From: Trypanosoma brucei | Lineage: Eukaryota | Reading direction: 5' to 3' | DNA length: 64,000 nucleotides | Assembly (NCBI GenBank): GCA_000002445.1 | Contig: CP000071.1 | Location: forward strand, 480,001-544,000 | In this document: piece after piece, positions 27,586 through 58,806 of the stretch | How positions within the stretch are numbered: the first letter of the stretch is position 1 | Layout of the letters: every line of letters begins with the position of its first letter | Program-made: the position numbers and the translations under genes | The notes under the pieces: generated by a model | What the model saw: the letters and a program-made list of their open reading frames with translations, nothing else | The model's database searches: none | Told to the model about the DNA's origin: nothing

Positions 27586-27632
27586 TGTGTGTGTGTGTAT
27601 GTGTATGTATGTATGTATGTATGTTAACGCAG
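27586..27632. repeat. (TG)n/(TATG)n compound microsatellite in a long intergenic region
   Basis: 'gtgtgtgtgtgtgtgtatgtgtatgtatgtatgtatgtatg' read directly. Confidence 0.85.
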
Positions 27633-31165: not shown

Positions 31166-31984
31166 ATGCCCGGGCAGGTTTCTTCAGCGTCCTTGCCACC
31201 GGTCATTTCCTCCGTTCAGGCGTACGTTAAGGCGTTGCTCCATTGCCACAAGTACCCAACGCAGGCGGTTTCCGGTTTCCTCATCGGTAAACGCATCAGC
31301 GCCACCAGCAACACCAACGCCAGCAGTCCTGCTTCCAACAGCTCCGCCGCCGCAACGCCAACGACTGTACTTGGTGCTAATGCGATCCCTAACTTCACAG
31401 CCAATGCGATTAGTGCTACCAATGCTGACGGTAATAACGTTAACAGCTCCGGTAGCAGCAGTGACGAAGCTGAATGTATTTTTGTGGCAGATGCCGTGCC
31501 GCTTTTCCACACCATCATAATGACAGATCCACACCCAATGATGACGGTTGCATATGCGCAGGTTTCCAGCTACGCCCGTACAAAGGGTCTTGTACTCTTG
31601 GGATATTACATCGCAAATGAACGTACGGGCGATACGGCTGTCTGTTCCCTCACGGAAAATGTACTGCGTATGCTTCACAGCAGAAAATCCGGTGTTCATG
31701 AGCCCCTGCTATGGAGAATTGTTAGCACACCGTCTGGTGACAGCGTGGATGTTCGTGGGGCCTACTACAACAGCGGCAGCAGCTCCTTCACAGACGCGCC
31801 GTCGCTCACGTTTGGTCGCTGGAACTCCGACACGCTTTCGTGTGAAACGACAGAGCCTAAAGCAGCTGCGGTTGAGGCGTTTGAGAACTCAATGGATGCA
31901 TTAAAACAATTTCAGTTAGTGGACTTTGAGGATCATTTGGAGAGCGTACAATTGAACTACCTCGACCAAACAGTCTCCGCCTGA
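31166..31984 (+). CDS. UPF0172 / EMC8-EMC9-like (MPN-like) protein carrying a low-complexity insertion
   Basis: The N-terminus 'VQAYVKALLHCHKYPTQAVSGFLIG' matches the EMC8/9 signature '…AYCKM(V)LHAAKYPHCAVNGLLVAE'. An S/A/N/T-rich insertion follows. Confidence 0.45.
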   Translation: MPGQVSSASLPPVISSVQAYVKALLHCHKYPTQAVSGFLIGKRISATSNTNASSPASNSSAAATPTTVLGANAIPNFTANAISATNADGNNVNSSGSSSDEAECIFVADAVPLFHTIIMTDPHPMMTVAYAQVSSYARTKGLVLLGYYIANERTGDTAVCSLTENVLRMLHSRKSGVHEPLLWRIVSTPSGDSVDVRGAYYNSGSSSFTDAPSLTFGRWNSDTLSCETTEPKAAAVEAFENSMDALKQFQLVDFEDHLESVQLNYLDQTVSA

Positions 31985-34036: not shown

Positions 34037-34870
34037 ATGTTACGCTGCGCTACCAGTTTTCGATGTTACATGCGCGTGATTTGCCTCACGATGGCTCCTG
34101 ATGGCGCCATGACAAGTGCTTTGCGAAAATTGGACTACACGCCGTACACGCTGCGAAGCGCTTTCTCACAGGGCCGTGCCAACCGTCACCCGACTGAATG
34201 GGCTTCTGCTCTACGGGGCGAGCGGGACATTGACTTGTGCAAACTGATGGCAGATTTTGACGCTGCTGTGGGGCCTCCGGCCGCTATGTTGTATGCCAAG
34301 CTCCTGCGCGAATGCCCGGATTATACGAAAGTGATATTAGTGAAGGAGACGGACAAACAACAATGGGCGCGAGAACACGAGAGATGCGTTATATCACTTC
34401 TGAAGGGACACCGCCACCCACCCCAAAACCGTATTGCTAAGGCATTTTACACAATATTGAGCGAAATGGCACCGCACCCGATCGAACAGCCGTTGGGGGC
34501 GATTTCAGGGAATGGAGATGATGACACTCGAATTTCAGGACGCGTGGACGCGCTGGAACGTTATGAAGCTGAGGTTTGCCGGGAGGTGCCTTCCAGTCGC
34601 TTGTTGGTGTATCATCACGGCGATGGCTGGGAGCCCTTATGTAGTTTTTTGGGGAGGGAAGTCCCTGGTGAACCATTTCCGCCTTATGATGGTGGAATGC
34701 ACGTAATTCGTAATCTCCATGAACGTGTCGAGCGTACTGAGAAAATAGCGTATGTAGCCGTGCTATTACTTGGTGGTACGGCATTGTATGCCTTCTTTCC
34801 AGTTTTGCTAGACATGAAGGAATATTTTGAAAAGTTGTACAGAGACTACCAGATTGCGTATGGACAGTGA
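34037..34870 (+). CDS. Sulfotransfer_4-like (P-loop sulfotransferase fold) protein with a C-terminal hydrophobic helix
   Basis: 'ADFDAAVGPPAAMLYAKLLRECPDYTKVILVKETDKQQWAREHE' matches the family core 'DFDxxxDxPxAxxYxELxxxYPxxKFILTVRDxxxWxxS'. The N-terminal 'MAPDGAMTSALRKLDYTPYTL' sits where the 'SRTGTTSLxxALxxLGY' PAPS loop would be, in degenerate form. Confidence 0.45.
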   Translation: MLRCATSFRCYMRVICLTMAPDGAMTSALRKLDYTPYTLRSAFSQGRANRHPTEWASALRGERDIDLCKLMADFDAAVGPPAAMLYAKLLRECPDYTKVILVKETDKQQWAREHERCVISLLKGHRHPPQNRIAKAFYTILSEMAPHPIEQPLGAISGNGDDDTRISGRVDALERYEAEVCREVPSSRLLVYHHGDGWEPLCSFLGREVPGEPFPPYDGGMHVIRNLHERVERTEKIAYVAVLLLGGTALYAFFPVLLDMKEYFEKLYRDYQIAYGQ

Positions 34871-45800: not shown

Positions 45801-48800
45801 GGAGGAACAACCGTGGTTTAATGTGATTCGGCCGCACTTCTTGTTGGAGCTTCCAGAGACGCTACGTCGGGAGTTGTTATTCGACCACATGAATGTGCTG
45901 CTCGGTAGTGAAACACGGGAATTGGAGGGACATCAGACACGGATCTTTGCCGCGTTCTTCACACAATTACCGGCTGATGTGCAACGGGAGGCGGCTGAGG
46001 TGGAGCAGCGGTGGCGGCAAGTTACCGGTGACGTGCCTAGCAGTGCTGGGAATGAAACCCCAAGCCGGAGTGTGCTGTTAGATTTACTGGCCACTGTCGA
46101 TACGGAGTTGCGCCAGGAGATATTGGCAACATGTGACCTCGGAGATCTTGAGGAATACCCTGAGCTCCTCCGAGAGGCCAACAGGGCCCGCCAATCTCGA
46201 GCTGTGGAGGCTGTGAGTGAAGGGGACGCCTCGGTACCACGTCAGCTACGGCGACGCGAGGGAGCGTTAACAGTGATTCGAGGGCGGCGCCCTGCGGATG
46301 CAGAAGGGGCTAATGCCGCTGTCTCAGTATTTGGGACTGATGCTCTGTCCACACTCACATTACCCCGCATACCCCCCGTTTTGCGTCGCATTCGGGGACT
46401 GGGTCCAGTGGCGTACCATCAACACCGTGACAATTCACTTTCCTGGTTCACCAGTAACATGAGTGGAAACCATCACCCCAGGAATTTGGGCCGCAGGCAA
46501 AACAGCCGTATTCGTGACGAGAGCAGTGATGATGATAACGTCAACAGGCGAGGGTACTCGTCACGAGGTTTCGCCTTCATTACGGAGGCGCATCTTGTGT
46601 CGTGTATCCGTGCACAACAAAGCCGTGTTGTGCGTGACGAGAGAGTGACCCCGCCACCGAACCGACAGAATGGTGCAGCGGGTGTGGAGAATGCCGTCCC
46701 CGCGATACCCAGTGCAATTCTGAAACAGCTTGTAGAACTCATATGGCTCAGCAAAGCTTCCTATTCGCCACTCGACCGTCCAACTTCATCGTCAACCGAC
46801 CTCTATGTTGGCTCCCAATTGGTGCAACTGCTAGTGACTGCTTGTAGAAAACCGGAGACAGCGGCGGAGGCGATGCTTTTTCTTGTGGACACAGTTCTAG
46901 AAAGAATACCTTCAACGTCGTATTCGCTATCGCATGAATCCGTTGGTTCGGAATCATCCCAAACTGGCCCTCATGGTGTCACCGACTCGGGCCGCAACGC
47001 ACTGCCTACAGCTTCGCTAGTTACTTCCACCAGTGGGGTTGGTCGTGCTGTTGGTGCTTCTGTGGATGTAATCCGTGACTGTGGTCGTGTCGCACTGCGG
47101 ACATTGCTTGTGATTGGTCAGTTGATTGAGCGCTGCCGTGCTGCTGGTCTGAGCGTTACAACCCTCCCCGATTCTGTGTACATGAAGGTTACTCAAAGTT
47201 CGGCTGAGTCACCAATTACTGCGCAAGAAGAGACCACTGGTTCTCGCTTATTTAAGAAGCTTGTTGAGCTCGTGCTCCGTGTTCCTCTGCCCCGTGTGGA
47301 GGCTGCATTCACACGTGTATTGTGTCGGCTTAACCAGCAGCTCCAACGATTGGAAGAGATCGCACCCGTGTCGCGACGTGCTCCGCGTGATGTGGACCTC
47401 GAGTCTCAGGGTGACAACGTAATTTTCCATTTACGTCACCCACATCCTCTGCGGTGGCAGAATTTGCACCGCTACCCCTATGTTGATAGTGGCTACATTT
47501 GCAACAGGTGCAACACAACATTCCACACCGAAACTGTTGCTTTCCACTGCGAGATGTGCCGATTTGATATTTGCCCAGCCTGCAGTTTCGTGTCGTTGAC
47601 GGTAGAAGAAGAGAGGGTACGAGGGCGGCATTGGGGCTATTCTCTTGTGTCGTCGAAGGGGACAATGGAGGCCGCGTTGCAGCTGCTGCGTCACCCGAAC
47701 TGTACAGATGATATGGCGCAGGAGGTGATGGAGTTCTTTCGCCGTGGTATCAAGGAAAGTGCACACCGTGACAAGGGCGTCGCTGCAGCCAACACTAGCG
47801 CCGCCATCGCGATGGTTGAGCGCGTCATCATTGACCTTGCAAATAGTATTACGGTGGAAATACATGAGTGCGTTAACGCATTACGGGCTGCTTTTCCACA
47901 CAAGGTATTCCAGTCGTTTTTCTTAAGTGCTACTTCTAATGAGGATGGGAACAGTGGTGGAACGGAGAGTCAACAATGGACAGCTCAGGAGGCAAGTGTC
48001 GCGTTGTCCTACATGTGTCTAAACTCAACCTCGAATAAGTTACTCGCTTTATTCCACCCATACGCCGAGTCCCACCGTCCAGAGCCACGTGAAGTATCAT
48101 TGATGTGGCATGCCGTGCAAATGTACTTGGCGGAAGTAGCCTTCATCCTTCAACACATACAAAACCGTTCCTCTGTTCTGCTGCCCCAGGCTGTGCTTCT
48201 TCTGCTCAGCACCTTCTGTCAGTTTCACATGGCGGAGCCCCGTAGGGATTCGTCTGCGAGTACCGCCTCAGAGAGTGTGAGTAGTTTGAGTTTGGAGAAA
48301 ACCGACACAGAACGCTTCATGTTGGATTCAACACATGCCTCGTCGACAGTTTCGGATGCCGCGGACGCTGCAGCAAAGTTGGCCAATAGCGAGCAGCGGC
48401 AACACCGGGATCCTCCCCCTCACGAAGGCCCAGATGTTGGAAGTACCGACAGCGACGGTTCGGGTGATGAGCGCCCAATGATGCCTCGCGTCGTAAGGCA
48501 GTTTGTAGAGCGCAACAAGTTAACTATCAATGCGCTCATCCAATATGACCCAAAGGTTCTTGAAGGAGGCTTCAAGTTTCTTAGGTCGGAGCCTGGGTTT
48601 GTTGACTTCAATATACGTTTGAATGACTTTCATCGCCAGATCAGCTACGCTTCACAGGGCCCTCGAATTAGTCTGAGCATCAACCGTGGCCAGTGCCTCC
48701 GTGATAGTTTCGCGCAACTTTCCAAATTGAATAATTTCCATGGATCAATCAGTGTTCGCTTCAGTGGAGAGGAGGGGGCTGACGCGGGTGGTCTCACGCG

Positions 48801-49731
48801 GGAGTGGTTCCAATTGATCGCGGAGGAGATGGTAAATGATAACTACGCCCTCTTTATTCATTCACGCGAGGGGATGACTTACCAGCCGAATCCCCTCTCC
48901 GGTGTGAATCCTCTTCACCTGCAGTACTTCCGTTTCGCTGGAATTGTCGTTGGTATGGCTGTGGCGCACCGCGTGGCCATTGATGTCCATTTTACACGGG
49001 CTGTATACCGCCACATGATTGGCATACAACCCACATTCGGTGACCTCAAGAGCGTGGATCCCGAGCTGTACGAAAATCTCAAGTGGCTGTTGGTGAATGA
49101 TGTCAGTGATCTTGGTCTCTTCTTCACCGTGAGTTGCGAAAAGTTCGGTGTGACTGAGGAGGTTGAACTTATTCCCAACGGCTCGCAGGTGGCGGTGACA
49201 AATGCAAACAAATCACAGTATGTTCGCCTACGTTGCGAGTTCTGCATGACACGACAGATTGAAGAGCAGTTGCAGGAGTTTCTCAAAGGATTCTATGCTG
49301 TCATTCCCCGGAAGGAGATTCGAAACTTTTCAGCGCAGGAACTGGAGCTTGTGATTTGCGGCATGCCAGATATCGATGTTGAGGACCTTCGTCTCAACAC
49401 CACATATGATGGCTACACCTCCACATCGCTGCAGATCCGCTGGTTCTGGGAAGTGGTAGCGGCGATGAGCAAAGAAGACCGGGCAAATCTCCTGCAGTTT
49501 GCGACGGGCGCCTCGAGGGTGCCACACGGCGGCTTCAGCAATTTGGAGTCATCGAATGGTTCGCCTCAGCGCTTTACCGTCTCCCGGTGGGCGGACAGTG
49601 CGGAACTGCTTCCACAGGCCCACACGTGTTTCAACAAAATTGCGCTACCGGAGTACAGCAGTTGTGAGGAACTACGCAAAAAGTTAATGGTTGCCATCAC
49701 ACTTGGGAGTCGGGGCTTCACCATGACGTAG
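36817..49731 (+). CDS. Giant HECT-domain E3 ubiquitin-protein ligase (4304 aa) with a poly-Asp acidic tract and a ZZ-type zinc finger
   Basis: The ORF starts at an ATG. The C-terminal roughly 400 aa form a canonical HECT domain: 'FSGEEGADAGGLTREWFQL', 'NPLHLQYFRFAGIVVGMA', 'TGASRVPHGGFSNL', and the catalytic 'PQAHTCFNKIALPEYSSCEELRKKLMVAI'. A ZZ finger 'YICNRCNTTFHTETVAFHCEMCRFDICPACS' lies at about 47494..47590. A (GAY)n tract at about 44731..44814 encodes roughly 30 consecutive Asp. Confidence 0.85.
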   Translation: MLAVRGRAGSFRNQGGMTFQGNEYHVTQQLQLLPPVLQRYVGRLHECLVDCRLTPQVFHEILNDEEFFRDVRGSYNKRFGDIIKTVAGEWWSTCMKDILQRVSSAADGVDNAPAASCSAVRAANEETTEGTSSLDQVLPGKCDDEASSIEVCRDLRAVLLLAVVVCSPYCVIRGPDTPVITCTARVMLCRDPSIIYLGLLINLAQSNQAERSLDSAMVLRTLAHGWGSSPTFEDVVKCCLRARRRRQRRLAAPNEEEQVNAISTEEDDAEEAADIALLQLPGLVRDPLQIVPDRSAAQSSGGGGKCMSDSLHIGRCVLQSMASAAGNPERLLWWCRCRLLCMQLLSPADCEELLAGPSCDFFRSLWKVERMFGDILDLAEHDDDGEESDACYGGISSTSGVGSAPTVAALVGIVADIVRGWHRAENSGGAMGSIVLNYTSRNPFETVNRVVPGHRKFQQRSHRCLARDWQYGLLVQYHSTHLAVFPHPNSSYATMLPVMVAQLTDVLRHYPHYSPIQLMYSLALTRENTNTSVALNSGLVPAIVTVMRTYMDEKQEYGENASADNGTEGIRYGWSYKAAGVLHWCFTVLEQLATLSTHESVNPIVFLLSPAEEDGYELCHHICKKIFYPGGHPVLLVAAFRFFSACIHHNVRDVVPALQQRGVLDTLLKIGESTDILERYNCPRGEANSEEGVAVQQAGEGQPPLATSVKGNKVAPITLAEYSAYYEQAVPIVCICSMLQAFAVHNSTHASLVNRMIMRRFVWSLTVPYFPEVSSPLSVPSSPSTLAVLCVERVEPQRVFTRLAAAAGVDLLVLIRTLPPLQDYFFESVEETLKSLIEEAKQKGPPLRDVGLSMWNILACFSDLEYKQLAQRGSGRRGRSQRADQASEAADALLDKFKNCGKVVAGSLGTLLKLSSTVPFASPVSLLSNGNVLTSNLFDVQCMMFESLTREVIQFASDIVKDALQGGNNGVLTEEQAGALWSLFFLFFRKTSHGSSSANGTNHFRRDLANVIFDAFIALEMATGTQRTQEESAGSAVPALTPVAASPTVGDQVIGLMDAHSMWSSDFELSALANNLLSSALSMALPPSDRSPANTPLNFFAAVVDGANAGNDAFGVRHVDTTSADAERGNTETGPNAVSGSSSAVERFRNDVSRLLTSSQTRHRHSLPTFHTHYHGSGVPLNPHTSGSGHIMLVAPSYILGGVRELLQKVAKSVTAAARVRKEEEDIKEEGDTSEAGCPPQKMQWEQMHHFAALEAVDLAPLREAEMRLQAAEAALSVGWKYISGNSGLVAFLHNIIGNLWRITECLLPVQNSQLLTGPLSSTSSALVNNPCNFCGVGGVAERGSAVATSDTTANSGATAGPPLDAEKLKTVVGYLTGILEALLKLPPDRGLQRFPWQPRLLYFALITWRSRGLELSPAMILGALAHLVDLGSEVFKRGATVISPSISACESEVDVEAVGDDRSPLTLGSPPRPDSHHPNRSEEDSMVRIRVAGDFADLFGEVLPSVSLRSERLVQLSLRNRTSRSDTPVAPRTPEVSATGFPRDTEEWRGFGPVSLAEYAPCWVLEVAATMHANDKSVGKMWVLIRRLCSKLCWIYHTYSSPVSANSGAGDDDQPKKGILLIERIIRLVLEDPVRNYTLLEFLAVVLSQDETTAQREALVTRTQLPYAILDCIVKEVRRIENEQNEDASKRKEKWSLRNSMLGQLFCFLSSCSVGALTEKGTGACPHYRGNSTSFCWMGHLCPHPHVGDKSGSHMRRGSARSSKVTRQIAKVLEEFGYKGDVSPQAPPSELETVTSDAVTGATSRRATGRNMRGTEAPGQNPAENARNDGDETATHQDDAVSGVSSVTKKCVDVKLKLSSVVGGTSSLPKSMLSECAVLVLDYLADDDETNEAEKWESLNTEDTRSDTLCTPRHVARRAAKVSGETNVLETPIICIAVALLAQLLDAGDTTLLSHIYKLNETSKKGFVMRAVSRLLREDMIPTSVCVHVLKALVDQSDHTEWVVYSAMVSAVQNCIRAGVTVLLKETDVRDMYASSVLGAGRKAIAPRVGGDVYRHSVPMDEFVTCLRTVVDKHPKAFCTVFNSACIVHIVSAEGNPKGDTRSAVLLAPRKPPRIHAMGSAPSPQRTTVEYVLDTLLRRLAQKQLPPSFVAAVLNNITTLPAVASIVTTYCVNVPVPESMRGAFLDQKAEEDEPTLNQKQEFGDSFLLHEATPRPLTPFLAVLLFMDERQLECLEPFLSNVAQKAPSRMAHILLQALDVTLTALSSENSGGNCLVTRNEEMELVHRASSRPSPRTMACSLLHALRLLLVVTSSSLVWRLCEELWQRGALDLLYRMVEQKCYSTEKDAATLILVIRRLLLAHSKCAGRSNGKVSPAAGHGVTAGSSVSRGTMTGLQGAELSDAHLGLMRHRQRRQQQQSGAEEDEEDSQTPPPDTGREEGRTLGEAGMSPLPTGMQQPHRQQFLQSGSVDDSFYLNALVNGNDSRREASDSNNRRRRSLEEGTFSGFLLGLGELLRPTQDIVSFESRNISDSTHDEDESDVTGDGDIGGVSPGQQAIHLVVGRIGGGFTPRGSGDGDDNSGHNEGGEGNIARGARSESGFDMSGVDDDDMGGNDDGGPHSDGGDDDDVEGADFDLNDTDDDDDDDDDDDDDDDDDDDDDDDDDDDDEELLNFDSEYYDDEMERGSVSFSLHNRYPPGGLLGGTGPQIPFDSFTVGNEPRMDGRPASIEAWDFSSVRRDQRIRLEDLHPHGEGWSLPSAVPDPADFWSVFAHGRLEGADHMFHTLYGSSRHSSTSRLVNICSIVNMEVREQWESAQALHPVRQVLRETSEAPPDPEVTPPAPEAAGEPRNGDETAAWNAGGDDITLIGGNGDTQPLLYEPGHGEGQLQQQVNDRTGTDIATMAEANVAHVPGETATQGFSNSESSGATRILASPGSATDDVGAGLALLDFGGQSVAPQADPAETHIASDAGVTSSVVASAGSALTAPPTAIAEPPMEEQPWFNVIRPHFLLELPETLRRELLFDHMNVLLGSETRELEGHQTRIFAAFFTQLPADVQREAAEVEQRWRQVTGDVPSSAGNETPSRSVLLDLLATVDTELRQEILATCDLGDLEEYPELLREANRARQSRAVEAVSEGDASVPRQLRRREGALTVIRGRRPADAEGANAAVSVFGTDALSTLTLPRIPPVLRRIRGLGPVAYHQHRDNSLSWFTSNMSGNHHPRNLGRRQNSRIRDESSDDDNVNRRGYSSRGFAFITEAHLVSCIRAQQSRVVRDERVTPPPNRQNGAAGVENAVPAIPSAILKQLVELIWLSKASYSPLDRPTSSSTDLYVGSQLVQLLVTACRKPETAAEAMLFLVDTVLERIPSTSYSLSHESVGSESSQTGPHGVTDSGRNALPTASLVTSTSGVGRAVGASVDVIRDCGRVALRTLLVIGQLIERCRAAGLSVTTLPDSVYMKVTQSSAESPITAQEETTGSRLFKKLVELVLRVPLPRVEAAFTRVLCRLNQQLQRLEEIAPVSRRAPRDVDLESQGDNVIFHLRHPHPLRWQNLHRYPYVDSGYICNRCNTTFHTETVAFHCEMCRFDICPACSFVSLTVEEERVRGRHWGYSLVSSKGTMEAALQLLRHPNCTDDMAQEVMEFFRRGIKESAHRDKGVAAANTSAAIAMVERVIIDLANSITVEIHECVNALRAAFPHKVFQSFFLSATSNEDGNSGGTESQQWTAQEASVALSYMCLNSTSNKLLALFHPYAESHRPEPREVSLMWHAVQMYLAEVAFILQHIQNRSSVLLPQAVLLLLSTFCQFHMAEPRRDSSASTASESVSSLSLEKTDTERFMLDSTHASSTVSDAADAAAKLANSEQRQHRDPPPHEGPDVGSTDSDGSGDERPMMPRVVRQFVERNKLTINALIQYDPKVLEGGFKFLRSEPGFVDFNIRLNDFHRQISYASQGPRISLSINRGQCLRDSFAQLSKLNNFHGSISVRFSGEEGADAGGLTREWFQLIAEEMVNDNYALFIHSREGMTYQPNPLSGVNPLHLQYFRFAGIVVGMAVAHRVAIDVHFTRAVYRHMIGIQPTFGDLKSVDPELYENLKWLLVNDVSDLGLFFTVSCEKFGVTEEVELIPNGSQVAVTNANKSQYVRLRCEFCMTRQIEEQLQEFLKGFYAVIPRKEIRNFSAQELELVICGMPDIDVEDLRLNTTYDGYTSTSLQIRWFWEVVAAMSKEDRANLLQFATGASRVPHGGFSNLESSNGSPQRFTVSRWADSAELLPQAHTCFNKIALPEYSSCEELRKKLMVAITLGSRGFTMT

Positions 49732-50535: not shown

Positions 50536-50566
<31 letters not shown>

Positions 50567-51196
50567 TTGTATATCGGCCTTTTATCTTTCATTTATTTGC
50601 GGATTGACTGGCCTTAACCCCCCGACCTCGATACCCAATTCTTTCCCTCCTAAATAAATTTGCATTCGAATGCACAAGTAATTACACCTTGAAACGTCTG
50701 TCGGTGTTGCTGCTGTTGGTACACGCAAAAATTATAGTGGAAAATACGCTTGTTTGTGTATTGGACAGTTTCTGTTTCACTTTTTTTTTTTGTTGACTAT
50801 CAAATGCTACTCTTTTTTTCTTCTTTCTTCTTTTTTTTTTCCTCATTCATGCAAGCCACTGCTTCTGCCTCCTCTGTTTCGCCACACGTCCAGCTATTAT
50901 CAGTATCTCATATGTGGCAGGAAAAGAGAGGAGAGGGAAGATTGGATAAGTTAGTTTTTCTAAAAATTCCCTTGGTTGTAGGTTAAGATAAATGTTGCAG
51001 CCGGTTTATTTGTTGGGGAGATGCGTATACGTATGTGTATATGTTTGGCTGCTTGTGCGTTGGAGTGGCTCCCGTGCAGCTCTTCCATTATCTATTCATT
51101 AACACATAGCGGTCATACGGTAGCGATGTGAGTTTTGGAGGAAATTAAACACTTCGGTAGAGGGGGAGTTAGTTTCTGTCATATGTGGATTTGTGT

Positions 51197-51211
51197 ATTT
51201 TTTTTTTTTTT
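51197..51211 (+). promoter_or_regulatory. Poly(T) polypyrimidine tract, a candidate trans-splicing/polyadenylation signal, upstream of the lysyl-tRNA synthetase
   Basis: T13 is followed by AG dinucleotides. A second tract 'cctctcttttttttttaccctcacc' lies at 51262..51290. Both precede the start ATG at 51411. Confidence 0.5.
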
Positions 51212-51410
51212 GAGACCTGAAGTTGAGGTTCGTACCTTGCAATTTTACTCATTGGCGCCAACCTCTCTTTTTTTTTTACCCTCACCGTTGCTACTGATAG
51301 TGGTGGTCTTCTTTACTATTGGCAACGTTGCCATTCACAAACCACGGTTCTACCTTTGTACAGTAGGAAAAGGAAAAAAAAAACAAGAGAATATACGCGC
51401 GCAAGAGACG

Positions 51411-53165
51411 ATGTCGGCTGTGGAGGAGCTCCGAGCTCAAATCGATGCGCTCGCGTCGCAGATCTCTGCGGTTAAAAAGGAACAGGGCGCCTCTAGTGAG
51501 GCGTGCAAATCCCTTGTGGCTAAAATGACTGAACTTCGAAAGCAACTTCCTCAAGAAAAGAAGGAAAAGAAAGCGGAGAAGGCCCCGGAGATCAGTTACT
51601 ACGATACACGTCTCGCAATGGTGAAAGAAATGGGCCCTCTCGGTGCCGCCTACCCTCATAAGTTCCACCGAGACTACACCTTACCCGCCTTCCGAGAGTG
51701 TTTCAAGCCAATGTTGCAGGAAAAGGGTCAACGCCTCGATAAGGTCGTGACGATTGCCGGACGTATCGTCGTGAAGAGAAGCTCGAGCTCCAAACTGCAT
51801 TTTTTGGCTCTTCAGGGTGATGGGGAGGTACTGCAGGTTATATCCATGGCGAGTGACTACGTTAATGATGGTTTTGCGGACATTCACAGCAAGATCAAGC
51901 GTGGCGATATCATTGGTGTGCGAGGTGTGCCATCGTTTTCAAACACGGGGGAGTTCTCCATGAGTGCCTACGAAATCACGCTGCTCTCCACATGTTTTCA
52001 CATGTTGCCAGATGAGCATTACGGGCTGAGCTCAGTCGAACAGCGCTTCCGTCAGCGATACCTCGACCTGATTGTGAATCGAGAAAACGCGAAGACTTTT
52101 ATCCTCCGCTCCAAGATCATAAGCTACATCCGCAGTTTCTTTGACCAGAAGGACTTCCTAGAGGTGGAAACGCCCATGTTGAACCAGATCGCCGGTGGTG
52201 CTGCTGCGCGGCCTTTTATCACACACCACAATGAGCTCAACCAGACAATGTACCTGCGAATTGCACCGGAGTTGTACCTAAAAAAACTTGTTGTTGGTGG
52301 CTTGGATCGTGTATATGAGATCGGCAAACAGTTCCGCAACGAAGGTATCGATCTCACGCATAATCCGGAGTTCACGAGTGTGGAGAGTTATTGGGCGTAC
52401 GCAGACTACAATGATTGGATGGAGACCACTGAGGAGTTACTTTACGGTATGGTCATGCATCTTTACGGATCTCCTATTGTGAAGTACTCCCCGAGGGATT
52501 CAGAGGGCCGTCAGTTACCTGAGGTAACTTTTAACTTCAACAGGCCCTTCAAACGCCTGCACATTGTTCCGAAGTTGGAGGAGATACTAGGACTTAAATT
52601 CCCTGCTGATTTCTATTCCTCTGAGGCAAACAGTTTCTTTCTGGACATTTGCAAGAAGAACCAGGTTGAGTGCAATCCCCCCTTCACAACGACACGCCTA
52701 CTAGATGCGCTTGTCTCCCACTATCTTGAGCCACAGTGCCACGACCCGACATTTCTGTGCGACCACCCGCGTATAATGTCTCCGTTGGCAAAGTGGCACC
52801 GTAAAGACCTTCGGCTCAGCGAGCGCTTCGAGCTGTTTATTAACAAAAAAGAGATCTGCAATTCATATACGGAGTTAAACAGTCCCCTCGTGCAGCGAGA
52901 GGAGTTTGAAAGGCAACTGCGTGACCGCGAGAAGGGTGATGACGAGGCAATGGATATTGATGAGGGTTATGTACAAGCATTGGAATACGCGTTGCCTCCC
53001 ACTGGTGGTTGGGGTTTGGGTATTGATCGACTCGTCATGTATCTCACAAGCCAAAACAACATCAAGGAAGTCCTTCTATTTCCAGCTATGAAACCTGAAG
53101 GGACATCCTCTGCCACATTCCCACCAGGAACAATGTTGAATGGACAAGGGGTGCCACTTCTTTGA
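51411..53165 (+). CDS. KRS: Lysyl-tRNA synthetase (class II) with a eukaryote-type Lys-rich coiled-coil N-terminal extension
   Basis: Class II motif 2 is '[23 protein letters not shown]'. Motif 1 is 'FLEVETPML'. Motif 3 is the region '[17 protein letters not shown]'. The ORF track extends upstream to 51135. That extension contains long poly-T splice-acceptor tracts (51197..51211 and 51262..51290). I therefore take the start as the ATG at 51411 ([10 protein letters not shown]…). Confidence 0.88.
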
Positions 53166-53364
53166 AGGGTCTCAGGCACTACACGCGAGACAAATAGGCA
53201 GCTGAGCAACATGCAAAGGAAAAAAAAAGGTAAGACAGAACGGAGGATCACAAATGAAAAAGCATTAATCCCTACGAAAAACAACACAGCATGATTTAAA
53301 AAAAAAACAGAATTCGGATGGCGTAATAAATTACACATTTCAGGAGCAGTGTTAACATAATGTC

Positions 53365-56300
53365 AATTCTATTCGGTTACTGATGCAGTAAATTATACCA
53401 CTCTCTTTCTGCAGCGAATACGTGCTATCTCTCTGTTCAATTAACCTTCTTTTTTCCTTGCTCTTCCCTCTGCAACAGTGAGGCTCGCAGATGTTTATGT
53501 TCCTTTGAACCCTTGTGAGACTGTTGGGTCCCTTGATGATTGTGGCAACTCTCCACGGAACTTATCTGACAAAATTTGCCTACGAACCTATTACCAAGGC
53601 TGAGGTCTCTACAGTACCCTTGCTTTAAGCTCTGTGTGTGATGTATATACGACTATGAACAACTCGTCAGAGTGCTATCTTTGATGATCACATACATTTT
53701 GCTTCCTCACTGACAACATACCTGCATTTGCAATCACTCCTGTAAACATACATTTTTTGGCTCCTCTTTCTATTTCTTGAAACTCTATGCTCGATTGCTC
53801 GGCGACTCCACGGTGATGTTCAATACAATAACTGATGTAATGAGACCTAGTGGAATACTGCGGACACTTCTTGTTCTGAGCGAGTTTCGTCGATGAGGCA
53901 CAACATGATCTTTGACTACACATGATGAGCAGCAAAGAAAGGGAATCTCTTGTCGAGCTCAGGGAATGAATCCCAGTGGCGGTGACATGACAAACTTTGA
54001 TATTACTATAATCCATTCTATTCTGTTACTGATGCAGTAAATTATACCACCCTCTTTCTGCAGCGAATACGTGCTATCTCTCTGTTCAATTAACCTTCTT
54101 TTTTCCTTGCTCTTCCCTCTGCAACAGTGAGGCTCGCAGATGTTTATGTTCCTTTGAACCCTTGTGAGACTGTTGGGTCCCTTGATGATTGTGGCAACTC
54201 TCCACGGAACTTATCTGACAAAATTTGCCTACGAACCTATTACCAAGGCTGAGGTCTCTACAGTACCCTTGCTTTAAGCTCTGTGTGTGATGTATATACG
54301 ACTATGAACAACTCGTCAGAGTGCTATCTTTGATGATCACATACATTTTGCTTCCTCACTGACAACATACCTGCATTTGCAATCACTCCTGTAAACATAC
54401 ATTTTTTGGCTCCTCTTTCTATTTCTTGAAACTCTATGCTCGATTGCTCGGCGACTCCACGGTGATGTTCAATACAATAACTGATGTAATGAGACCTAGT
54501 GGAATACTGCGGACACTTCTTGTTCTGAGCGAGTTTCGTCGATGAGGCACAACATGATCTTTGACTACACATGATGAGCAGCAAAGAAAGGGAATCTCTT
54601 GTCGAGCTCAGGGAATGAATCCCAGTGGCGGTGACATGACAAACTTTGATATTACTATAATCCATTCTATTCTGTTACTGATGCGGTAAATTATACCACC
54701 CTCTTTCTGCAGCGAATACGTGCTATCTCTCTGTTCAATTAACCTTCTTTTTTCCTTGCTCTTCCCTCTGCAACAGTGAGGCTCGCAGATGTTTATGTTC
54801 CTTTGAACCCTTGTGAGACTGTTGGGTCCCTTGATGATTGTGGCAACTCTCCACGGAACTTATCTGACAAAATTTGCCTACGAACCTATTACCAAGGCTG
54901 AGGTCTCTACAGTACCCTTGCTTTAAGCTCTGTGTGTGATGTATATACGACTATGAACAACTCGTCAGAGTGCTATCTTTGATGATCACATACATTTTGC
55001 TTCCTCACTGACAACATACCTGCATTTGCAATCACTCCTGTAAACATACATTTTTTGGCTCCTCTTTCTATTTCTTGAAACTCTATGCTCGATTGCTCGG
55101 CGACTCCACGGTGATGTTCAATACAATAACTGATGTAATGAGACCTAGTGGAATACTGCGGACACTTCTTGTTCTGAGCGAGTTTCGTCGATGAGGCACA
55201 ACATGATCTTTGACTACACATGATGAGCAGCAAAGAAAGGGAATCTCTTGTCGAGCTCAGGGAATGAATCCCAGTGGCGGTGACATGACAAACTTTGATA
55301 TTACTATAATCCATTCTATTCTGTTACTGATGCAGTAAATTATACCACCCTCTTTCTGCAGCGAATACGTGCTATCTCTCTGTTCAATTAACCTTCTTTT
55401 TTCCTTGCTCTTCCCTCTGCAACAGTGAGGCTCGCAGATGTTTATGTTCCTTTGAACCCTTGTGAGACTGTTGGGTCCCTTGATGATTGTGGCAACTCTC
55501 CACGGAACTTATCTGACAAAATTTGCCTACGAACCTATTACCAAGGCTGAGGTCTCTACAGTACCCTTGCTTTAAGCTCTGTGTGTGATGTATATACGAC
55601 TATGAACAACTCGTCAGAGTGCTATCTTTGATGATCACATACATTTTGCTTCCTCACTGACAACATACCTGCATTTGCAATCACTCCTGTAAACATACAT
55701 TTTTTGGCTCCTCTTTCTATTTCTTGAAACTCTATGCTCGATTGCTCGGCGACTCCACGGTGATGTTCAATACAATAACTGATGTAATGAGACCTAGTGG
55801 AATACTGCGGACACTTCTTGTTCTGAGCGAGTTTCGTCGATGAGGCACAACATGATCTTTGACTACACATGATGAGCAGCAAAGAAAGGGAATCTCTTGT
55901 CGAGCTCAGGGAATGAATCCCAGTGGCGGTGACATGACAAACTTTGATATTACTATAATCCATTCTATTCTGTTACTGATGCGGTAAATTATACCACCCT
56001 CTTTCTGCAGCGAATACGTGCTATCTCTCTGTTCAATTAACCTTCTTTTTTCCTTGCTCTTCCCTCTGCAACAGTGAGGCTCGCAGATGTTTATGTTCCT
56101 TTGAACCCTTGTGAGACTGTTGGGTCCCTTGATGATTGTGGCAACTCTCCACGGAACTTATCTGACAAAATTTGCCTACGAACCTATTACCAAGGCTGAG
56201 GTCTCTACAGTACCCTTGCTTTAAGCTCTGTGTGTGATGTATATACGACTATGAACAACTCGTCAGAGTGCTATCTTTGATGATCACATACATTTTGCTT

Positions 56301-57086
56301 CCTCACTGACAACATACCTGCATTTGCAATCACTCCTGTAAACATACATTTTTTGGCTCCTCTTTCTATTTCTTGAAACTCTATGCTCGATTGCTCGGCG
56401 ACTCCACGGTGATGTTCAATACAATAACTGATGTAATGAGACCTAGTGGAATACTGCGGACACTTCTTGTTCTGAGCGAGTTTCGTCGATGAGGCACAAC
56501 ATGATCTTTGACTACACATGATGAGCAGCAAAGAAAGGGAATCTCTTGTCGAGCTCAGGGAATGAATCCCAGTGGCGGTGACATGACAAACTTTGATATT
56601 ACTATAATCCATTCTATTCTGTTACTGATGCAGTAAATTATACCACCCTCTTTCTGCAGCGAATACGTGCTATCTCTCTGTTCAATTAACCTTCTTTTTT
56701 CCTTGTTCTTCCCTCTGCAACAGTGAGGCTCGCAGATGTTTATGTTCCTTTGAACCCTTGTGAGACTGTTGGGTCCCTTGATGATTGTGGCAACTCTCCA
56801 CGGAACTTATCTGACAAAATTTGCCTACGAACCTATTACCAAGGCTGAGGTCTCTACAGTACCCTTGCTTTAAGCTCTGTGTGTGATGTATATACGACTA
56901 TGAACAACTCGTCAGAGTGCTATCTTTGATGATCACATACATTTTGCTTCCTCACTGACAACATACCTGCATTTGCAATCACTCCTGTAAGCATACATTT
57001 TTTGGCTCCTCTTTCTATTTCTTGAAACTCTATGCTCGATTGCTCGGCGACTCCACGGTGATGTTCAATACAATAACTGATGTAAC
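53365..57086. repeat. Tandem array of a 649-bp unit, about 5.7 near-identical copies, directly upstream of the GP63 array
   Basis: The same sequence recurs with exact 649-bp period; for example, 'tgatgcagtaaattatacca' is at 53381, 54030, 54679 and onward. The first copy is diverged. The array ends at 57086, where the sequence 'tgtaaTGAGACC' becomes 'tgtaaCATTATTG'. Each unit holds an identical 113-aa minus-strand ORF. Confidence 0.95.
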
Positions 57087-57141
57087 ATTATTGTTTTCTC
57101 TCTTCCCCTTGTTCCTCCCATGTGTCAAAAGGAAGCGGTTG

Positions 57142-58806
57142 ATGATGCTACCGGCGTGTGTAATCCCGATGCATGGCGCATTGAAACTCGCCATACTGCT
57201 GATGTTGGTATGGTGCTGTTCCTTGTGTCTCGCGAAGTCAGGTGGCCGCTGCATGTTCGATGAAATTGCGGCGAAAGCTGGACGTCCACGGGTTTTGGCG
57301 CTGCGAAGGACTAAAGCAGGCATGGAGAATGTAAAGTATGACAGGACAGGTTCCGTTGACCCTGAGTGGCAGCACATCCGTATTGTTGTTTTCGCAGAAG
57401 ACATGAAGGACCGGTCGCGATATTGCACGTCTGCAGGGCAGGAACGACCAACGTTTTTCGGAGAAACAGCGACATGTTCACAAGAAGACATTTTGACAGC
57501 CGCTAAGAGAGATATTGCCGTCACGAAGCTTCTTCCTTCAGCTGTCCAGATGCATATGGATAGGTTACTCGTCGACCCTATAACTGAACCCCTTGTCTTT
57601 CCTCCATTTGATGGTTCGGTGTGCTCTGAGTTCAAAGTACCGTCAAGTCATTTCTCAGAGGGCGTACCTGACGCTGATATGGTAATGTATGCTGCAGCGG
57701 GTCCAACGCCGGAGGGTGTGGCTGCCTGGGCTACGGGTTGCATAACTCTTGACGATGGGCGTGCTGTGGCTGGCGTAACTAACCTTGGCCCCGGTTCCAT
57801 TAGCCTGTCGGAGACCAGCATTCGCACAGCTGCTCATGAGATTGCCCACGCCCTTGGGTTCGATTTCGAAGCGATGAACGATGCCGGTATGGTGCAAAGA
57901 ATTCCCGGTGTTCGTGGAAAGGTTGATGTGACACTCATTTCGTCACCCAGGACACTGCAGAAGGCCCGCGAACACTACAATTGTCCCGATGCCCCTGGAA
58001 TGGAACTGGAGGACGAAGGTGGTAGTGGCACCGCATTATCACACTGGGAGCGGCGCAATGCGAAGGATGAGATCATGTCTGGTATTTCTTCACCTGGTCG
58101 ATACACAGCGCTAACGATGGCGGCGTTTGAGGATCTGGGATATTACCGTGGTGCCTGGGGGAGCGAAGAACCTATGGGTTGGGGAAACAACTCTGGTTGT
58201 GAGCTACTCAACGAAAGCTGTTTGGTGAACGGTGTGACAGCGCACCCGGATATGTTCTGCAACGAAACCGTGAGCAAGCTGGTTTGTAACTCGGAGCGAG
58301 ATGGTCTTGGAAGGTGTAATGTAATTAAGCATGAAAATCCACTTCCACCGCAATACCATTACTTTTCTGATCCTTCACGTGGTGCCCCCTCCCATCTCTT
58401 GATGGACTACTGCCCGTCCATTGACGCGTTCTCCAACACGCCTTGTGCCGACGGCGAAACGAAATTCATGCGTGGAAGTTTGATAGGACCGTCGTCAATG
58501 TGTCTGAAGGCCGAGGGACTCCGTGACAGTCAGGGCGTCATTGGCGATGTTTGTGCGGATGTGCGGTGTGATGGTGGTGAAGTAAGCATTCGTTATCTTG
58601 GGGATGATGCATGGCATCCGTGCCCAGAAGGCAGTCACATCAAACCGACTACAACATTCACGGATGGCGTCATTGTTTGCCCGACTTACAGTGAGGTTTG
58701 TATCAAAGCAACAGTGGTTGTACGCCCTTCTTCAGCCAGCTACCGTTCTTCAGTGCCGCAATCGCTGCTTCTCACCCTATTCGCTATAGTTTATGCTGCC
58801 TGTTAA
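57142..58806 (+). CDS. MSP-B: Leishmanolysin/GP63 (major surface protease, M8 zinc metalloprotease), tandem copy 1
   Basis: The zinc-binding 'AAHEIAHALGFD' (HExxH) is present. The signal peptide reads 'MMLPACVIPMHGALKLAILLMLVWCCSLCLA'. There are many conserved Cys. A C-terminal hydrophobic GPI-type signal reads 'SLLLTLFAIVYAAC'. The ORF track began at 57022 inside the 649-bp repeat; the MML start is taken by analogy with copies 2 and 3. Confidence 0.85.
   Translation: MMLPACVIPMHGALKLAILLMLVWCCSLCLAKSGGRCMFDEIAAKAGRPRVLALRRTKAGMENVKYDRTGSVDPEWQHIRIVVFAEDMKDRSRYCTSAGQERPTFFGETATCSQEDILTAAKRDIAVTKLLPSAVQMHMDRLLVDPITEPLVFPPFDGSVCSEFKVPSSHFSEGVPDADMVMYAAAGPTPEGVAAWATGCITLDDGRAVAGVTNLGPGSISLSETSIRTAAHEIAHALGFDFEAMNDAGMVQRIPGVRGKVDVTLISSPRTLQKAREHYNCPDAPGMELEDEGGSGTALSHWERRNAKDEIMSGISSPGRYTALTMAAFEDLGYYRGAWGSEEPMGWGNNSGCELLNESCLVNGVTAHPDMFCNETVSKLVCNSERDGLGRCNVIKHENPLPPQYHYFSDPSRGAPSHLLMDYCPSIDAFSNTPCADGETKFMRGSLIGPSSMCLKAEGLRDSQGVIGDVCADVRCDGGEVSIRYLGDDAWHPCPEGSHIKPTTTFTDGVIVCPTYSEVCIKATVVVRPSSASYRSSVPQSLLLTLFAIVYAAC

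What the first reader, a model, noticed from the sequence alone, without database searches (positions are those of the whole stretch)
53365..57086. 649-bp tandem array (about 5.7 copies) rich in C-box/D-box-like motifs: candidate snoRNA cluster between KRS and GP63
Seen in sequence: a 649-bp unit repeats in near-perfect tandem. Each unit holds three exact UGAUGA hexamers: 'ccTTGATGAttg', 'cTTTGATGAtcac' and 'acATGATGAgcag'. About 0.16 would be expected by chance. Several CUGA motifs lie 25 to 75 nt downstream of them. One example is TTGATGA…(26 nt)…CTGA…(~40 nt)…CTGAGG, flanked by GAGAC/GTCTC that could form a terminal stem. Established knowledge: trypanosomatid snoRNAs (C/D and single-hairpin H/ACA-like) are encoded in tandemly reiterated clusters of about this size, on the coding strand of polycistronic units. 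The alternative is a non-functional satellite at the GP63 array boundary.
Basis: partly seen in the sequence, partly recalled or inferred. Interest (0 to 1): 0.65.

Follow-up and report, generated by a model that had tools for sequence, protein, structure and literature searches.

The report
Known trypanosome snoRNA gene cluster TB8Cs1

Summary
A 649-bp unit repeats 5.73 times at 53363-57085 with 99-100% identity, between a lysyl-tRNA synthetase gene and a GP63 array, on the coding strand.

The snoRNA interpretation is supported, and the locus is already known. Published probe and RNAi primers for T. brucei snoRNAs TB8Cs1C1 and TB8Cs1C3 (Chikne et al. 2019) match every unit exactly.

Each unit holds four box C/D snoRNA genes in the order C4-C1-C2-C3. 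All four are listed as abundantly expressed in that paper.

Applying the +5 rule to my box assignments gives SSU A97, SSU G2199, a G in LSU-alpha and LSU-beta A588. These agree with the published sites SSU_125, SSU_2227, LSUa_1709 and LSUb_588.

Arrays with the same gene order lie directly after LysRS in T. cruzi and T. melophagium, and a shorter set lies there in T. vivax. Across these species 49% of snoRNA columns are invariant against 8% of spacer columns.

The second UGAUGA is the C' box of C1, and the C boxes of C1 and C2 are GUGAUGU. One CUGA lies inside the C2 guide. There is no H/ACA member.

One point stays open. TB8Cs1C4 is the most conserved and most abundant member, yet it has no box-adjacent rRNA complement.

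The parts
53363..57085 (+). Tandem array of the 649-bp TB8Cs1 unit, 5.73 copies. It starts inside a degenerate 3' fragment of C3 and ends inside the sixth C2 copy.
53363..53386 (+). Degenerate 3' fragment of TB8Cs1C3 at the upstream array border. It has two substitutions and no C box, so it is presumably non-functional.
   Evidence: variants at 53365 and 53375; sequence
53526..53609 (+). TB8Cs1C4, copy 1 (about 84 nt; ends inferred). C box UGAUGA 53534-53539, D' CUGA 53566-53569, D CUGA 53600-53603, terminal pairing GGGUCC/GGUCUC. Conserved elements are UGUGGC..CUCUCC..GGA and GCC..CGAACCUA.U.CCA.GG. No rRNA target was found.
   Evidence: negative target tests
54175..54258 (+). TB8Cs1C4, copy 2
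   Evidence: 649-bp register
54824..54907 (+). TB8Cs1C4, copy 3
55473..55556 (+). TB8Cs1C4, copy 4
56122..56205 (+). TB8Cs1C4, copy 5
56771..56854 (+). TB8Cs1C4, copy 6
53634..53716 (+). TB8Cs1C1, copy 1 (83 nt, delimited by the published probe primers). C box GUGAUGU 53638-53644, D' guide GAACAACUCGU 53657-53667, D' CAGA 53668-53671, C' UGAUGA 53682-53687, D guide UUUUGCUUCCUC 53697-53708, D CUGA 53710-53713.
   Evidence: primer matches; targets; literature
54283..54365 (+). TB8Cs1C1, copy 2
54932..55014 (+). TB8Cs1C1, copy 3
55581..55663 (+). TB8Cs1C1, copy 4
56230..56312 (+). TB8Cs1C1, copy 5
56879..56961 (+). TB8Cs1C1, copy 6
53808..53885 (+). TB8Cs1C2, copy 1 (about 78 nt; ends inferred). 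C box GUGAUGU 53813-53819, D' guide CUGAUGUAAUGAG 53832-53844, D' CCUA 53846-53849 (CCGA in T. cruzi and T. vivax, CUGA in T. melophagium), probable degenerate C' UGCGGA 53859-53864, D CUGA 53876-53879.
54457..54534 (+). TB8Cs1C2, copy 2
55106..55183 (+). TB8Cs1C2, copy 3
55755..55832 (+). TB8Cs1C2, copy 4
56404..56481 (+). TB8Cs1C2, copy 5
57053..57085 (+). Truncated sixth C2 copy. It keeps the C box and the first five bases of the guide (CUGAU) and has no D' or D box. The array ends here.
53918..54035 (+). TB8Cs1C3, copy 1 (118 nt, delimited by the published probe primers). C box AUGAUGA 53922-53928, D' guide AGGGAAUCUC 53940-53949, D' UCGA 53953-53956, invariant UGACAUGA 53983-53990 (probable C'), accessory rRNA-complementary element UAAUCCAUUC 54009-54018, D CUGA 54029-54032.
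   Evidence: primer matches; targets; literature
54567..54684 (+). TB8Cs1C3, copy 2
55216..55333 (+). TB8Cs1C3, copy 3
55865..55982 (+). TB8Cs1C3, copy 4
56514..56631 (+). TB8Cs1C3, copy 5
51135..53165 (+). Upstream flank: lysyl-tRNA synthetase. The annotated protein is 584 aa and is 100% identical to the T. equiperdum/T. brucei-group protein. This gene is the synteny anchor for the cluster across Trypanosoma.
57095..58806 (+). Downstream flank: first GP63 (leishmanolysin) repeat. Homology to the 2193-bp GP63 unit starts about 10 bp after the snoRNA array ends.

Best explanation
The array is the Trypanosoma brucei chromosome-8 snoRNA cluster TB8Cs1. Each 649-bp unit encodes four box C/D snoRNAs in the order C4, C1, C2, C3.

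The cluster lies on the sense strand of a long polycistronic unit, between the LysRS and GP63 genes. From published knowledge of trypanosomatid snoRNA clusters, it is transcribed by RNA polymerase II as part of a long precursor. The individual snoRNAs are then cut out and trimmed, and copy number (6, 6, 5 and 5 intact copies here) sets the dosage.

Each mature RNA assembles on its C/D and C'/D' boxes with the fibrillarin (NOP1) methyltransferase complex. The 10-13 nt stretch just upstream of a D or D' box pairs with rRNA, and the rRNA nucleotide opposite the fifth guide position is 2'-O-methylated.

The assignments shown here, which agree with the literature, are:
- C1 D' guide to a G in LSU-alpha (published Gm1709).
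- C1 D guide to SSU G2199, near the 3' end (published SSU_2227).
- C2 D' guide to SSU A97 (published SSU_125).
- C3 D' guide to LSU-beta A588 (published LSUb_588, or Am590 in the NAR text). A second 10-nt element of C3 pairs with rRNA only 2 nt upstream of the methylation duplex (their starts are 12 nt apart). I infer that it stabilises the guide-target interaction.

Published knock-downs show that C1 and C3 are also needed for normal LSU precursor processing and for release of srRNA1.

C4 has intact boxes, a conserved terminal stem and the highest conservation and abundance. It has no box-adjacent rRNA complement, so its target is unknown.
For: Identity. Eight published oligonucleotides match every unit exactly and in the expected order. 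They are the northern probe ends and the RNAi-construct primers for TB8Cs1C1 and TB8Cs1C3 (PMC6411936 Table S1; positions). The window is from the T. brucei group: its LysRS is 100% identical to the T. equiperdum/T. brucei cluster, and Rfam finds TB8Cs4H2 at 33208 with 91.8 bits.

Expression. TB8Cs1C1 to C4 are all listed as C/D snoRNAs with high read counts. C4 has 222131 RPKM (99th percentile). In that same PRS experiment 1, C1, C2 and C3 sit at the 90th, 89th and 84th percentiles.

Function from the literature. Silencing C1 lowers LSU-alpha Gm1709, and silencing C3 lowers the LSU-beta A methylation. Both cause LSU precursors to accumulate and srRNA1 to fall. NOP1 silencing lowers LSUa_1709 (fold change 0.58, p=0.0001) and LSUb_588 (fold change 0.21, p=0.019).

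Guide-target pairing tested here. Exact complements occur on the sense strand of kinetoplastid rDNA from metagenomes. C1-D has 12 nt in 29 loci, C1-D' 11 nt in 8 loci, C2-D' 13 nt in 12 loci, and C3-D' 10 nt in 6 loci. The adjacent C3 accessory element has 10 nt in 9 loci. These sites lie in SSU or LSU rRNA.

A matched-species test used T. vivax snoRNAs against T. vivax rDNA. Box-anchored duplexes of 13, 14 and 12 bp were reached by 1, 0 and 0 of 200 shuffled guides.

The +5 rule gives SSU A97, SSU G2199 and LSU-beta A588 (plus primer numbering). SSU_125 and SSU_2227 both differ from my SSU numbering by the same +28.

Conservation. The same C4-C1-C2-C3 order in tandem arrays lies directly after LysRS in T. 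cruzi (541 bp, about 12 copies) and T. melophagium (about 744 bp, about 8 copies). T. vivax has about 1.3 units there. 179 of 365 snoRNA columns are invariant against 22 of 284 spacer columns (Fisher p=2e-32). Degenerate T. brucei D' boxes align with CUGA or CCGA in other species exactly where the +5 rule places them.
Against: Rfam has no family for these four RNAs. Only sub-threshold C/D-like hits appear: SNORD100 at 15.9 bits (E=7) over C4 and SNORD47 at 20.2 bits (E=1.1).

The 10-bp C3 D' duplex is not significant alone (17 to 29 of 200 shuffles reach it). It rests on the adjacent accessory match, its invariance in four species and the published site.

The D guides of C2 and C3 and both guide regions of C4 show no box-adjacent rRNA complement.

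The mature ends of C2 and C4 are inferred, not measured. I could not read the original cluster description (Liang et al. 2005), so unit size and copy number were not compared with it. I had no T. brucei rRNA sequence. The targets were tested on T. vivax and environmental kinetoplastid rDNA and on T. brucei primer fragments.
Confidence: 0.97

Rival explanations
1. The array is a non-functional satellite or junction repeat at the boundary of the GP63 array, and its C/D-like motifs arise by chance.
For: The array abuts the GP63 repeat within about 10 bp. The copies are nearly identical, as in satellites. Rfam curated families do not hit it.
Against: The same four-gene unit follows LysRS in T. cruzi, T. 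melophagium and T. vivax, where the called downstream genes carry no Peptidase_M8/GP63 hit. Conservation is confined to four blocks that carry the boxes and guides (49% against 8% invariant, p=2e-32). Published expression and knock-down data exist for these exact sequences.
Confidence: 0.01
2. The repeat encodes a protein, the 113-aa minus-strand ORF present once per unit (for example 53675-54016), or a repeated coding domain.
For: One 113-aa ATG ORF per unit lies on the minus strand. tblastn finds about 35% identical stretches in the T. cruzi and T. melophagium arrays. An automatic annotation of T. melophagium calls ORFs in its array.
Against: There is no Pfam match. Variable alignment columns are spread evenly over codon positions (47/90, 50/90, 49/89), so there is no third-position excess. 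The tblastn hits break into different frames, and the longest open frames in other species lie on varying strands and frames. The ORF is antisense to the polycistronic unit. The peptide similarity is what translating conserved RNA genes would give.
Confidence: 0.01
3. The cluster is a mixed C/D plus H/ACA-like cluster, with an additional single-hairpin AGA-box snoRNA hidden in a spacer.
For: Most trypanosomatid clusters mix both classes (PMC3273796). The longest spacers (53717-53807 and 54036-54174) are long enough to hold a 70-nt hairpin RNA.
Against: The published list gives only C1 to C4 for TB8Cs1. Rfam holds many T. brucei H/ACA-like families and finds TB8Cs4H2 elsewhere in this window, yet it gives nothing in the unit even at E up to 10. 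Spacer columns are 8% invariant and mostly gapped across species.
Confidence: 0.02

Closest known systems
T. brucei snoRNA cluster TB8Cs1 (TB8Cs1C1, C2, C3, C4; Liang et al. 2005 RNA 11:619; Michaeli et al. 2012; Chikne et al. 2019)
   Same: It is identical. Published probe and RNAi primers for C1 and C3 match every unit exactly. The published targets (LSUa_1709, SSU_2227, SSU_125, LSUb_588) follow from the boxes and guides mapped here.
   Different: No difference could be established. Unit length and copy number in the original description could not be checked because that paper is not held.
Other reiterated trypanosomatid snoRNA clusters (for example TB6Cs1, TB9Cs2, TB11Cs2 with SLA1; Leptomonas collosoma and Leishmania major clusters)
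   Same: They share tandem repetition of a sub-kilobase unit holding several snoRNA genes, a position on the sense strand inside a Pol II polycistronic unit, and processing from a long precursor (PMC3273796).
   Different: TB8Cs1 holds only C/D snoRNAs, whereas most clusters interleave C/D and H/ACA-like genes. This cluster follows LysRS in four Trypanosoma species but not in Leishmania donovani.
Yeast snR51 and human SNORD57 (guides for 18S Am100 and Am99). This equivalence is recalled from my own knowledge, not tested with a tool.
   Same: The C2 D' guide pairs with GGCUCAUUACAUCAG and selects the A of CUCA. By my count of the yeast 18S sequence this is the position homologous to yeast Am100.
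   Different: No sequence homology outside the guide was shown. Rfam does not match C2 to either family. The D' box is degenerate (CCUA) in T. brucei.
Polycistronic snoRNA gene clusters of plants and intronic snoRNAs of animals
   Same: The snoRNAs lack their own promoter, are released from a longer transcript, and use the same C/D RNP chemistry.
   Different: Here the unit is repeated head to tail about six times and sits between protein-coding genes of one polycistron, not in introns.

Membership tests
Box C/D snoRNA (2'-O-methylation guide) | A C box (RUGAUGA) near the 5' end and a D box (CUGA) near the 3' end, 60-120 nt apart | tested here: met
   C4 has UGAUGA and CUGA (84 nt). C1 has GUGAUGU and CUGA (83 nt). 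C2 has GUGAUGU and CUGA (78 nt). C3 has AUGAUGA and CUGA (118 nt). The boxes are invariant or nearly so in four species.
Box C/D snoRNA (2'-O-methylation guide) | A short terminal stem that brings the C and D boxes together | tested here: inconclusive
   C4 has GGGUCC/GGUCUC in T. brucei, GGCCC/GGGCC in T. cruzi and UUCC/GGAA in T. melophagium, so pairing is kept with different sequences. For C1, C2 and C3 only 2-4 possible pairs are seen. Mature ends were not measured here.
Box C/D snoRNA (2'-O-methylation guide) | An antisense element of at least 10 nt ending 1-3 nt upstream of D or D', with the target nucleotide opposite guide position 5 | tested here: met
   This is met for C1 (both guides), C2 (D') and C3 (D'). 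Duplexes are 10-14 bp in T. vivax and environmental kinetoplastid rRNA. C1 and C2 are reached by 0-1 of 200 shuffles. Position 5 falls on the published modified nucleotides. It is not met for C4.
Box C/D snoRNA (2'-O-methylation guide) | Accumulates as a discrete small RNA bound to fibrillarin/NOP1, with target methylation depending on it | not testable with these tools
   Literature only. RNA-seq counts are given for all four. Northern blots and snoRNAi for C1 and C3 show loss of Gm1709 and the LSU-beta Am. NOP1 silencing lowers LSUa_1709 and LSUb_588.
Trypanosomatid reiterated snoRNA cluster | A tandem repeat of a unit holding several snoRNA genes, on the sense strand of a polycistronic unit | tested here: met
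   There are 5.73 copies of 649 bp with four genes per unit. The main ORFs from 13 to 63192, including every one with a domain hit, are on the + strand, as are the snoRNAs.
Trypanosomatid reiterated snoRNA cluster | Orthologous cluster in related species, with genes conserved and spacers free to diverge | tested here: met
   T. cruzi, T. melophagium and T. vivax carry the same gene order after LysRS. Invariant columns are 49% in genes and 8% in spacers.
Cluster TB8Cs1 specifically | Sequence identity with the published TB8Cs1C1 and TB8Cs1C3 oligonucleotides | tested here: met
   All eight primer sequences match exactly, once per unit, in the expected order and orientation.
Trypanosomatid H/ACA-like snoRNA (single hairpin, AGA box) | A hairpin of about 70 nt with a pseudouridylation pocket and an AGA box 3 nt from the 3' end | tested here: not met
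   There is no Rfam H/ACA hit in the unit even at E up to 10, while TB8Cs4H2 is found at 33208. No conserved block lies outside the four C/D genes. None is listed for this cluster. No dedicated AGA-box hairpin scan was run.

The most novel reading that the evidence does not exclude
TB8Cs1C4 may not be a canonical rRNA methylation guide. It is the most abundant member (99th percentile) and the most conserved (57% invariant columns), and it has intact C/D boxes and a co-varying terminal stem. Its two conserved internal elements are UGUGGC..CUCUCC..GGA and CGAACCUA. Neither has a box-adjacent complement in a complete T. vivax rDNA unit, spacers included, or in environmental kinetoplastid rDNA. 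It is also absent from the published table of rRNA Nm sites and their guides. It could act on a non-rRNA target, or serve as a folding or processing chaperone through pairings placed away from the boxes. One example is the 9-nt match (AUAGGUUCG; 8 nt of it is the invariant core) to LSU-beta around nt 385.
Probability: 0.25. Interest if true: 0.35.

Novelty: already known. Interest (0 to 1): 0.1.

Why it matters
As a discovery it does not matter, because the cluster was described in 2005 and two of its four RNAs have been studied by knock-down.

It has some value as a calibration case. A reader working from raw sequence alone recognised a snoRNA cluster correctly from box statistics and repeat architecture.

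The exercise also yields practical annotations:
- Exact coordinates of 22 intact snoRNA gene copies and their boxes and guides.
- The corrected boundary with the GP63 array.
- The observation that several Trypanosoma assemblies break at this array, and that automatic annotation calls spurious protein genes inside it.

The one open point is the target of TB8Cs1C4.

Tried and rejected
1. TRF found nothing because its period limit is 500. I used the repeat finder and a lag comparison instead.

2. Rfam at gathering threshold, and at E up to 10, gave no family for the unit. These T. brucei C/D snoRNAs are apparently not in Rfam.

3. The original descriptions were not held: Liang 2005, Liang 2007, Barth 2008, Eliaz 2015 and Rajan 2020. 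A full-text search for C4 sequence strings found nothing.

4. C4 and srRNA1. The best RNAduplex hit of the C4 5' element in an environmental rDNA unit was the srRNA1-equivalent region (-22.8 kcal/mol, against -21.2 for the next hit). I rejected it for three reasons. The duplex has internal mismatches. The published TB9Cs2C5 guide implies that T. brucei reads about CUCGGAGCGAAAG there, not GGAGAGUUGCCACA. T. vivax rDNA shows no such match.

5. A 13-nt perfect match of the T. brucei C4 element to the T. vivax intergenic spacer lies at L110:17123. It sits 2.4 kb beyond the rRNA, the T. vivax guide itself has a mismatch there, and with 24 guides tested I treat it as chance.

6. The invariant C4 core CGAACCUA lies within a 9-nt match (AUAGGUUCG) to LSU-beta around nt 385 in T. 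vivax. It lies 9-17 nt from the D box, and an 8-mer match with wobble is expected about 0.4 times by chance in 6 kb. It is not accepted as a target.

7. The D guide of C2 pairs with AGAACAAGAAG in environmental SSU only when two D-box bases are included. It is not conserved in T. vivax, so it is not accepted.

8. The minus-strand 113-aa ORF was tested and rejected as coding.
Full report
**Observation**

The repeat is real. The repeat finder reports six in-register copies with a start-to-start spacing of exactly 649 bp and 99-100% identity. A lag-649 self-comparison places the array at 53363/53366 to 57085, which is 5.73 units. TRF missed it only because its maximum period is 500.

Each unit carries three TGATGA hexamers. 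Shuffled units carry 0.155 on average, and 3 or more occurred in 4 of 5000 shuffles. Each unit also has six CTGA and three TGATGT.

A class II lysyl-tRNA synthetase lies at 51135-53165, and three leishmanolysin/GP63 genes follow from about 57100, all on the + strand. The main ORFs of the window also lie on the + strand, so the array sits inside one polycistronic unit.

**Identity**

Rfam at gathering threshold finds only the T. brucei H/ACA-like snoRNA TB8Cs4H2 at 33208-33277 (91.8 bits). That hit, together with a LysRS 100% identical to the T. equiperdum/T. brucei-group protein, places the window on chromosome 8 of the T. brucei group.

The decisive result came from the primer table of Chikne et al. 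2019 (PMC6411936, Table S1).
- The northern-probe primers for TB8Cs1C1 are GTGTGTGATGTATATACGAC and the reverse complement of TTGTCAGTGAGGAAGCAAAA.
- Those for TB8Cs1C3 are ACACATGATGAGCAGCAAAG and the reverse complement of GCATCAGTAACAGAATAGAA.
- Both pairs match every unit exactly, as do the four RNAi-construct primers. C1 is at 53634-53716 and C3 at 53918-54035 in the first unit.

The same paper's Table S2 lists four C/D snoRNAs for this cluster, TB8Cs1C1 to C4, and no H/ACA member. Their read counts are high. C4 has 222131 RPKM (99th percentile). In that same PRS experiment 1, C1, C2 and C3 sit at the 90th, 89th and 84th percentiles. The array is therefore the known cluster TB8Cs1, first described by Liang et al. 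2005, a paper I could not open.

**Anatomy of one unit**

Four blocks carry box C/D architecture.
- C4 (53526-53609): C box UGAUGA at 53534, D' CUGA at 53566, D CUGA at 53600.
- C1 (53634-53716): C box GUGAUGU at 53638, D' CAGA at 53668, C' UGAUGA at 53682, D CUGA at 53710.
- C2 (about 53808-53885): C box GUGAUGU at 53813, D' CCUA at 53846, D CUGA at 53876.
- C3 (53918-54035): C box AUGAUGA at 53922, D' UCGA at 53953, invariant UGACAUGA at 53983, D CUGA at 54029.

The array starts inside a degenerate 3' fragment of C3 and ends inside the sixth C2. There are therefore 6, 6, 5 and 5 intact copies of C4, C1, C2 and C3. All seven substitutions among copies fall outside the intact genes.

**Targets**

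No T. brucei rRNA sequence was available, so I took kinetoplastid rDNA from metagenomes using a 5.8S pattern (101 loci). One of these, L018, holds a complete SSU-5.8S-LSU unit. I also obtained a T. vivax rDNA unit, reached through a spurious ORF called in its SSU.

Exact sense-strand complements were found as follows:
- C1 D guide UUUUGCUUCCUC, at the SSU 3' end (GAGGAAGCAAAA), in 29 loci.
- C1 D' guide GAACAACUCGU, in LSU (ACGAGUUGUUC), in 8 loci.
- C2 CUGAUGUAAUGAG, in SSU (CUCAUUACAUCAG), in 12 loci.
- C3 AGGGAAUCUC, in LSU-beta (GAGAUUCCCU), in 6 loci.

In a matched-species test (T. vivax guides against T. vivax rRNA), the box-anchored duplexes for C1-D', C1-D and C2-D' are 13, 14 and 12 bp. 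They were reached by 1, 0 and 0 of 200 shuffled guides.

The 10-bp C3 duplex is not significant alone (17 to 29 of 200 shuffles). However, C3 carries a second 10-nt element, UAAUCCAUUC at 54009-54018. It is complementary to GAAUGGAUUA, which ends 2 nt upstream of the first target, and it is invariant in four species. I read it as accessory pairing that stabilises the guide, an inference from the published idea of extra base-pairing in yeast snoRNAs.

**The +5 rule reproduces the published sites**

With the boxes as assigned, the nucleotide opposite guide position 5 is:
- SSU A97 for C2.
- SSU G2199 for the C1 D guide.
- The last G of ACGAG in LSU-alpha for the C1 D' guide.
- LSU-beta A588 for C3.

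These come, with numbering taken from the published primers. The published table gives SSU_125 (A, TB8Cs1C2), SSU_2227 (G, TB8Cs1C1), LSUa_1709 (G, TB8Cs1C1) and LSUb_588 (A, TB8Cs1C3). Both SSU values differ from mine by the same +28, so only the numbering differs.

For C2 this forces the D' box to 53846-53849. T. brucei has CCUA there, T. cruzi and T. vivax have CCGA, and T. melophagium has CUGA.

**Function**

This part comes from the literature. Silencing TB8Cs1C1 lowered LSU-alpha Gm1709, and silencing TB8Cs1C3 lowered the LSU-beta A methylation. Both knock-downs caused LSU precursors to accumulate and srRNA1 to drop. NOP1 (fibrillarin) silencing lowered LSUa_1709 (fold change 0.58, p=0.0001) and LSUb_588 (fold change 0.21, p=0.019). 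Trypanosome snoRNA clusters are transcribed polycistronically by Pol II and processed from the precursor (PMC3273796).

**Conservation**

Loci encoding LysRS orthologues were fetched from other Trypanosoma species.
- T. cruzi has a 541-bp array of about 12 units directly after LysRS.
- T. melophagium has a roughly 744-bp array of about 8 units.
- T. vivax has about 1.3 units.
- All three keep the order C4-C1-C2-C3.
- L. donovani has no such cluster there.

In a four-species alignment, 179 of 365 snoRNA columns are invariant against 22 of 284 spacer columns (Fisher p=2e-32), and most spacer columns are gapped. This excludes a neutral satellite. It also leaves no room for a further conserved RNA in the spacers, such as an H/ACA-like gene.

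**Rivals**

The minus-strand 113-aa ORF present in each unit has no Pfam match. Variable columns are spread evenly over its codon positions (47/90, 50/90, 49/89). Its weak tblastn similarity to the other arrays breaks across frames. It is a by-product of translating conserved RNA genes.

**The open point**

C4 is the most conserved block (57% invariant) and the most abundant RNA. Its terminal stem is kept by different sequences in different species. Yet neither conserved internal element has a box-adjacent complement in environmental rDNA or in the complete T. vivax rDNA locus, spacers included. C4 is also absent from the text of the paper that tabulates Nm sites and their guides.

Three suggestive matches were examined and not accepted (reasoning under Tried and rejected):
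- The srRNA1-equivalent region.
- A 13-mer in the T. vivax intergenic spacer.
- A 9-nt match (AUAGGUUCG), containing the invariant 8-nt core, in LSU-beta domain IV.

The 5' element could also form a small internal hairpin (GUGG/CCAC) whose changes between species are wobble-compatible.

**Verdict**

The feature is already known. Interest is low, apart from the unresolved target of C4.

Noticed in passing
window 33208-33277 (+): A single copy of the H/ACA-like snoRNA TB8Cs4H2 (Rfam RF01551, 91.8 bits, full length) lies between ORFs 31166-31984 and 34037-34870. It is about 20 kb upstream of TB8Cs1 on the same strand.
   Followed up: partly
window 57085-57145: The snoRNA array ends at 57085. Homology to the 2193-bp GP63 repeat begins about 10 bp later, with a polypyrimidine tract at 57090-57119 followed by an in-frame ATGATG near 57142. 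The mechanical ORF start (TTG at 57022) of the first GP63 copy lies inside the snoRNA array and is an artefact.
   Followed up: yes
window 53526-53609 and its five repeats: TB8Cs1C4 is the most conserved and most abundant member of the unit. It has no box-adjacent rRNA complement in T. vivax or environmental kinetoplastid rDNA. Its 5' element could also fold into a small GUGG/CCAC hairpin.
   Followed up: partly
window 54009-54018 (C3) and repeats: C3 carries a second 10-nt element, invariant in four species. It is complementary to LSU-beta 2 nt upstream of the methylation duplex, but it sits 11-20 nt from the D box. It looks like accessory pairing rather than a second guide.
   Followed up: partly
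L103 (T. theileri), L106 (T. rangeli), L107 (T. conorhini), L109 (T. equiperdum): These contigs all end less than 1 kb after LysRS, so the assemblies break at the snoRNA array. The T. rangeli contig ends with a C3-like 3' half. This suggests the array starts in the same phase as in T. brucei.
   Followed up: partly
L108:12433-18307 (T. melophagium): The public annotation calls a series of 81-179-aa genes with no Pfam hit inside the orthologous snoRNA array. These are almost certainly spurious protein calls.
   Followed up: no
window 27497-27627: An AT-rich palindromic stretch matches several miRNA models on both strands, well below their gathering scores. It lies in a GC dip (0.40) at 26-28 kb and is most likely a low-complexity artefact.
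   Followed up: no
window 50536-50574: [quoted passage not shown]
   Followed up: no
window 36817-49731 (+): This 4304-aa ORF has no Pfam family on record. It is conserved upstream of LysRS in T. equiperdum, T. theileri (4560 aa), T. melophagium (4611 aa) and T. rangeli (4068 aa).
   Followed up: no
L110 (T. vivax rDNA), 10001-10543 and 16695-17033: Hypothetical proteins are annotated inside the SSU rRNA gene and the intergenic spacer of T. vivax. These are spurious ORFs, which happened to give access to a Trypanosoma rDNA unit.
   Followed up: partly
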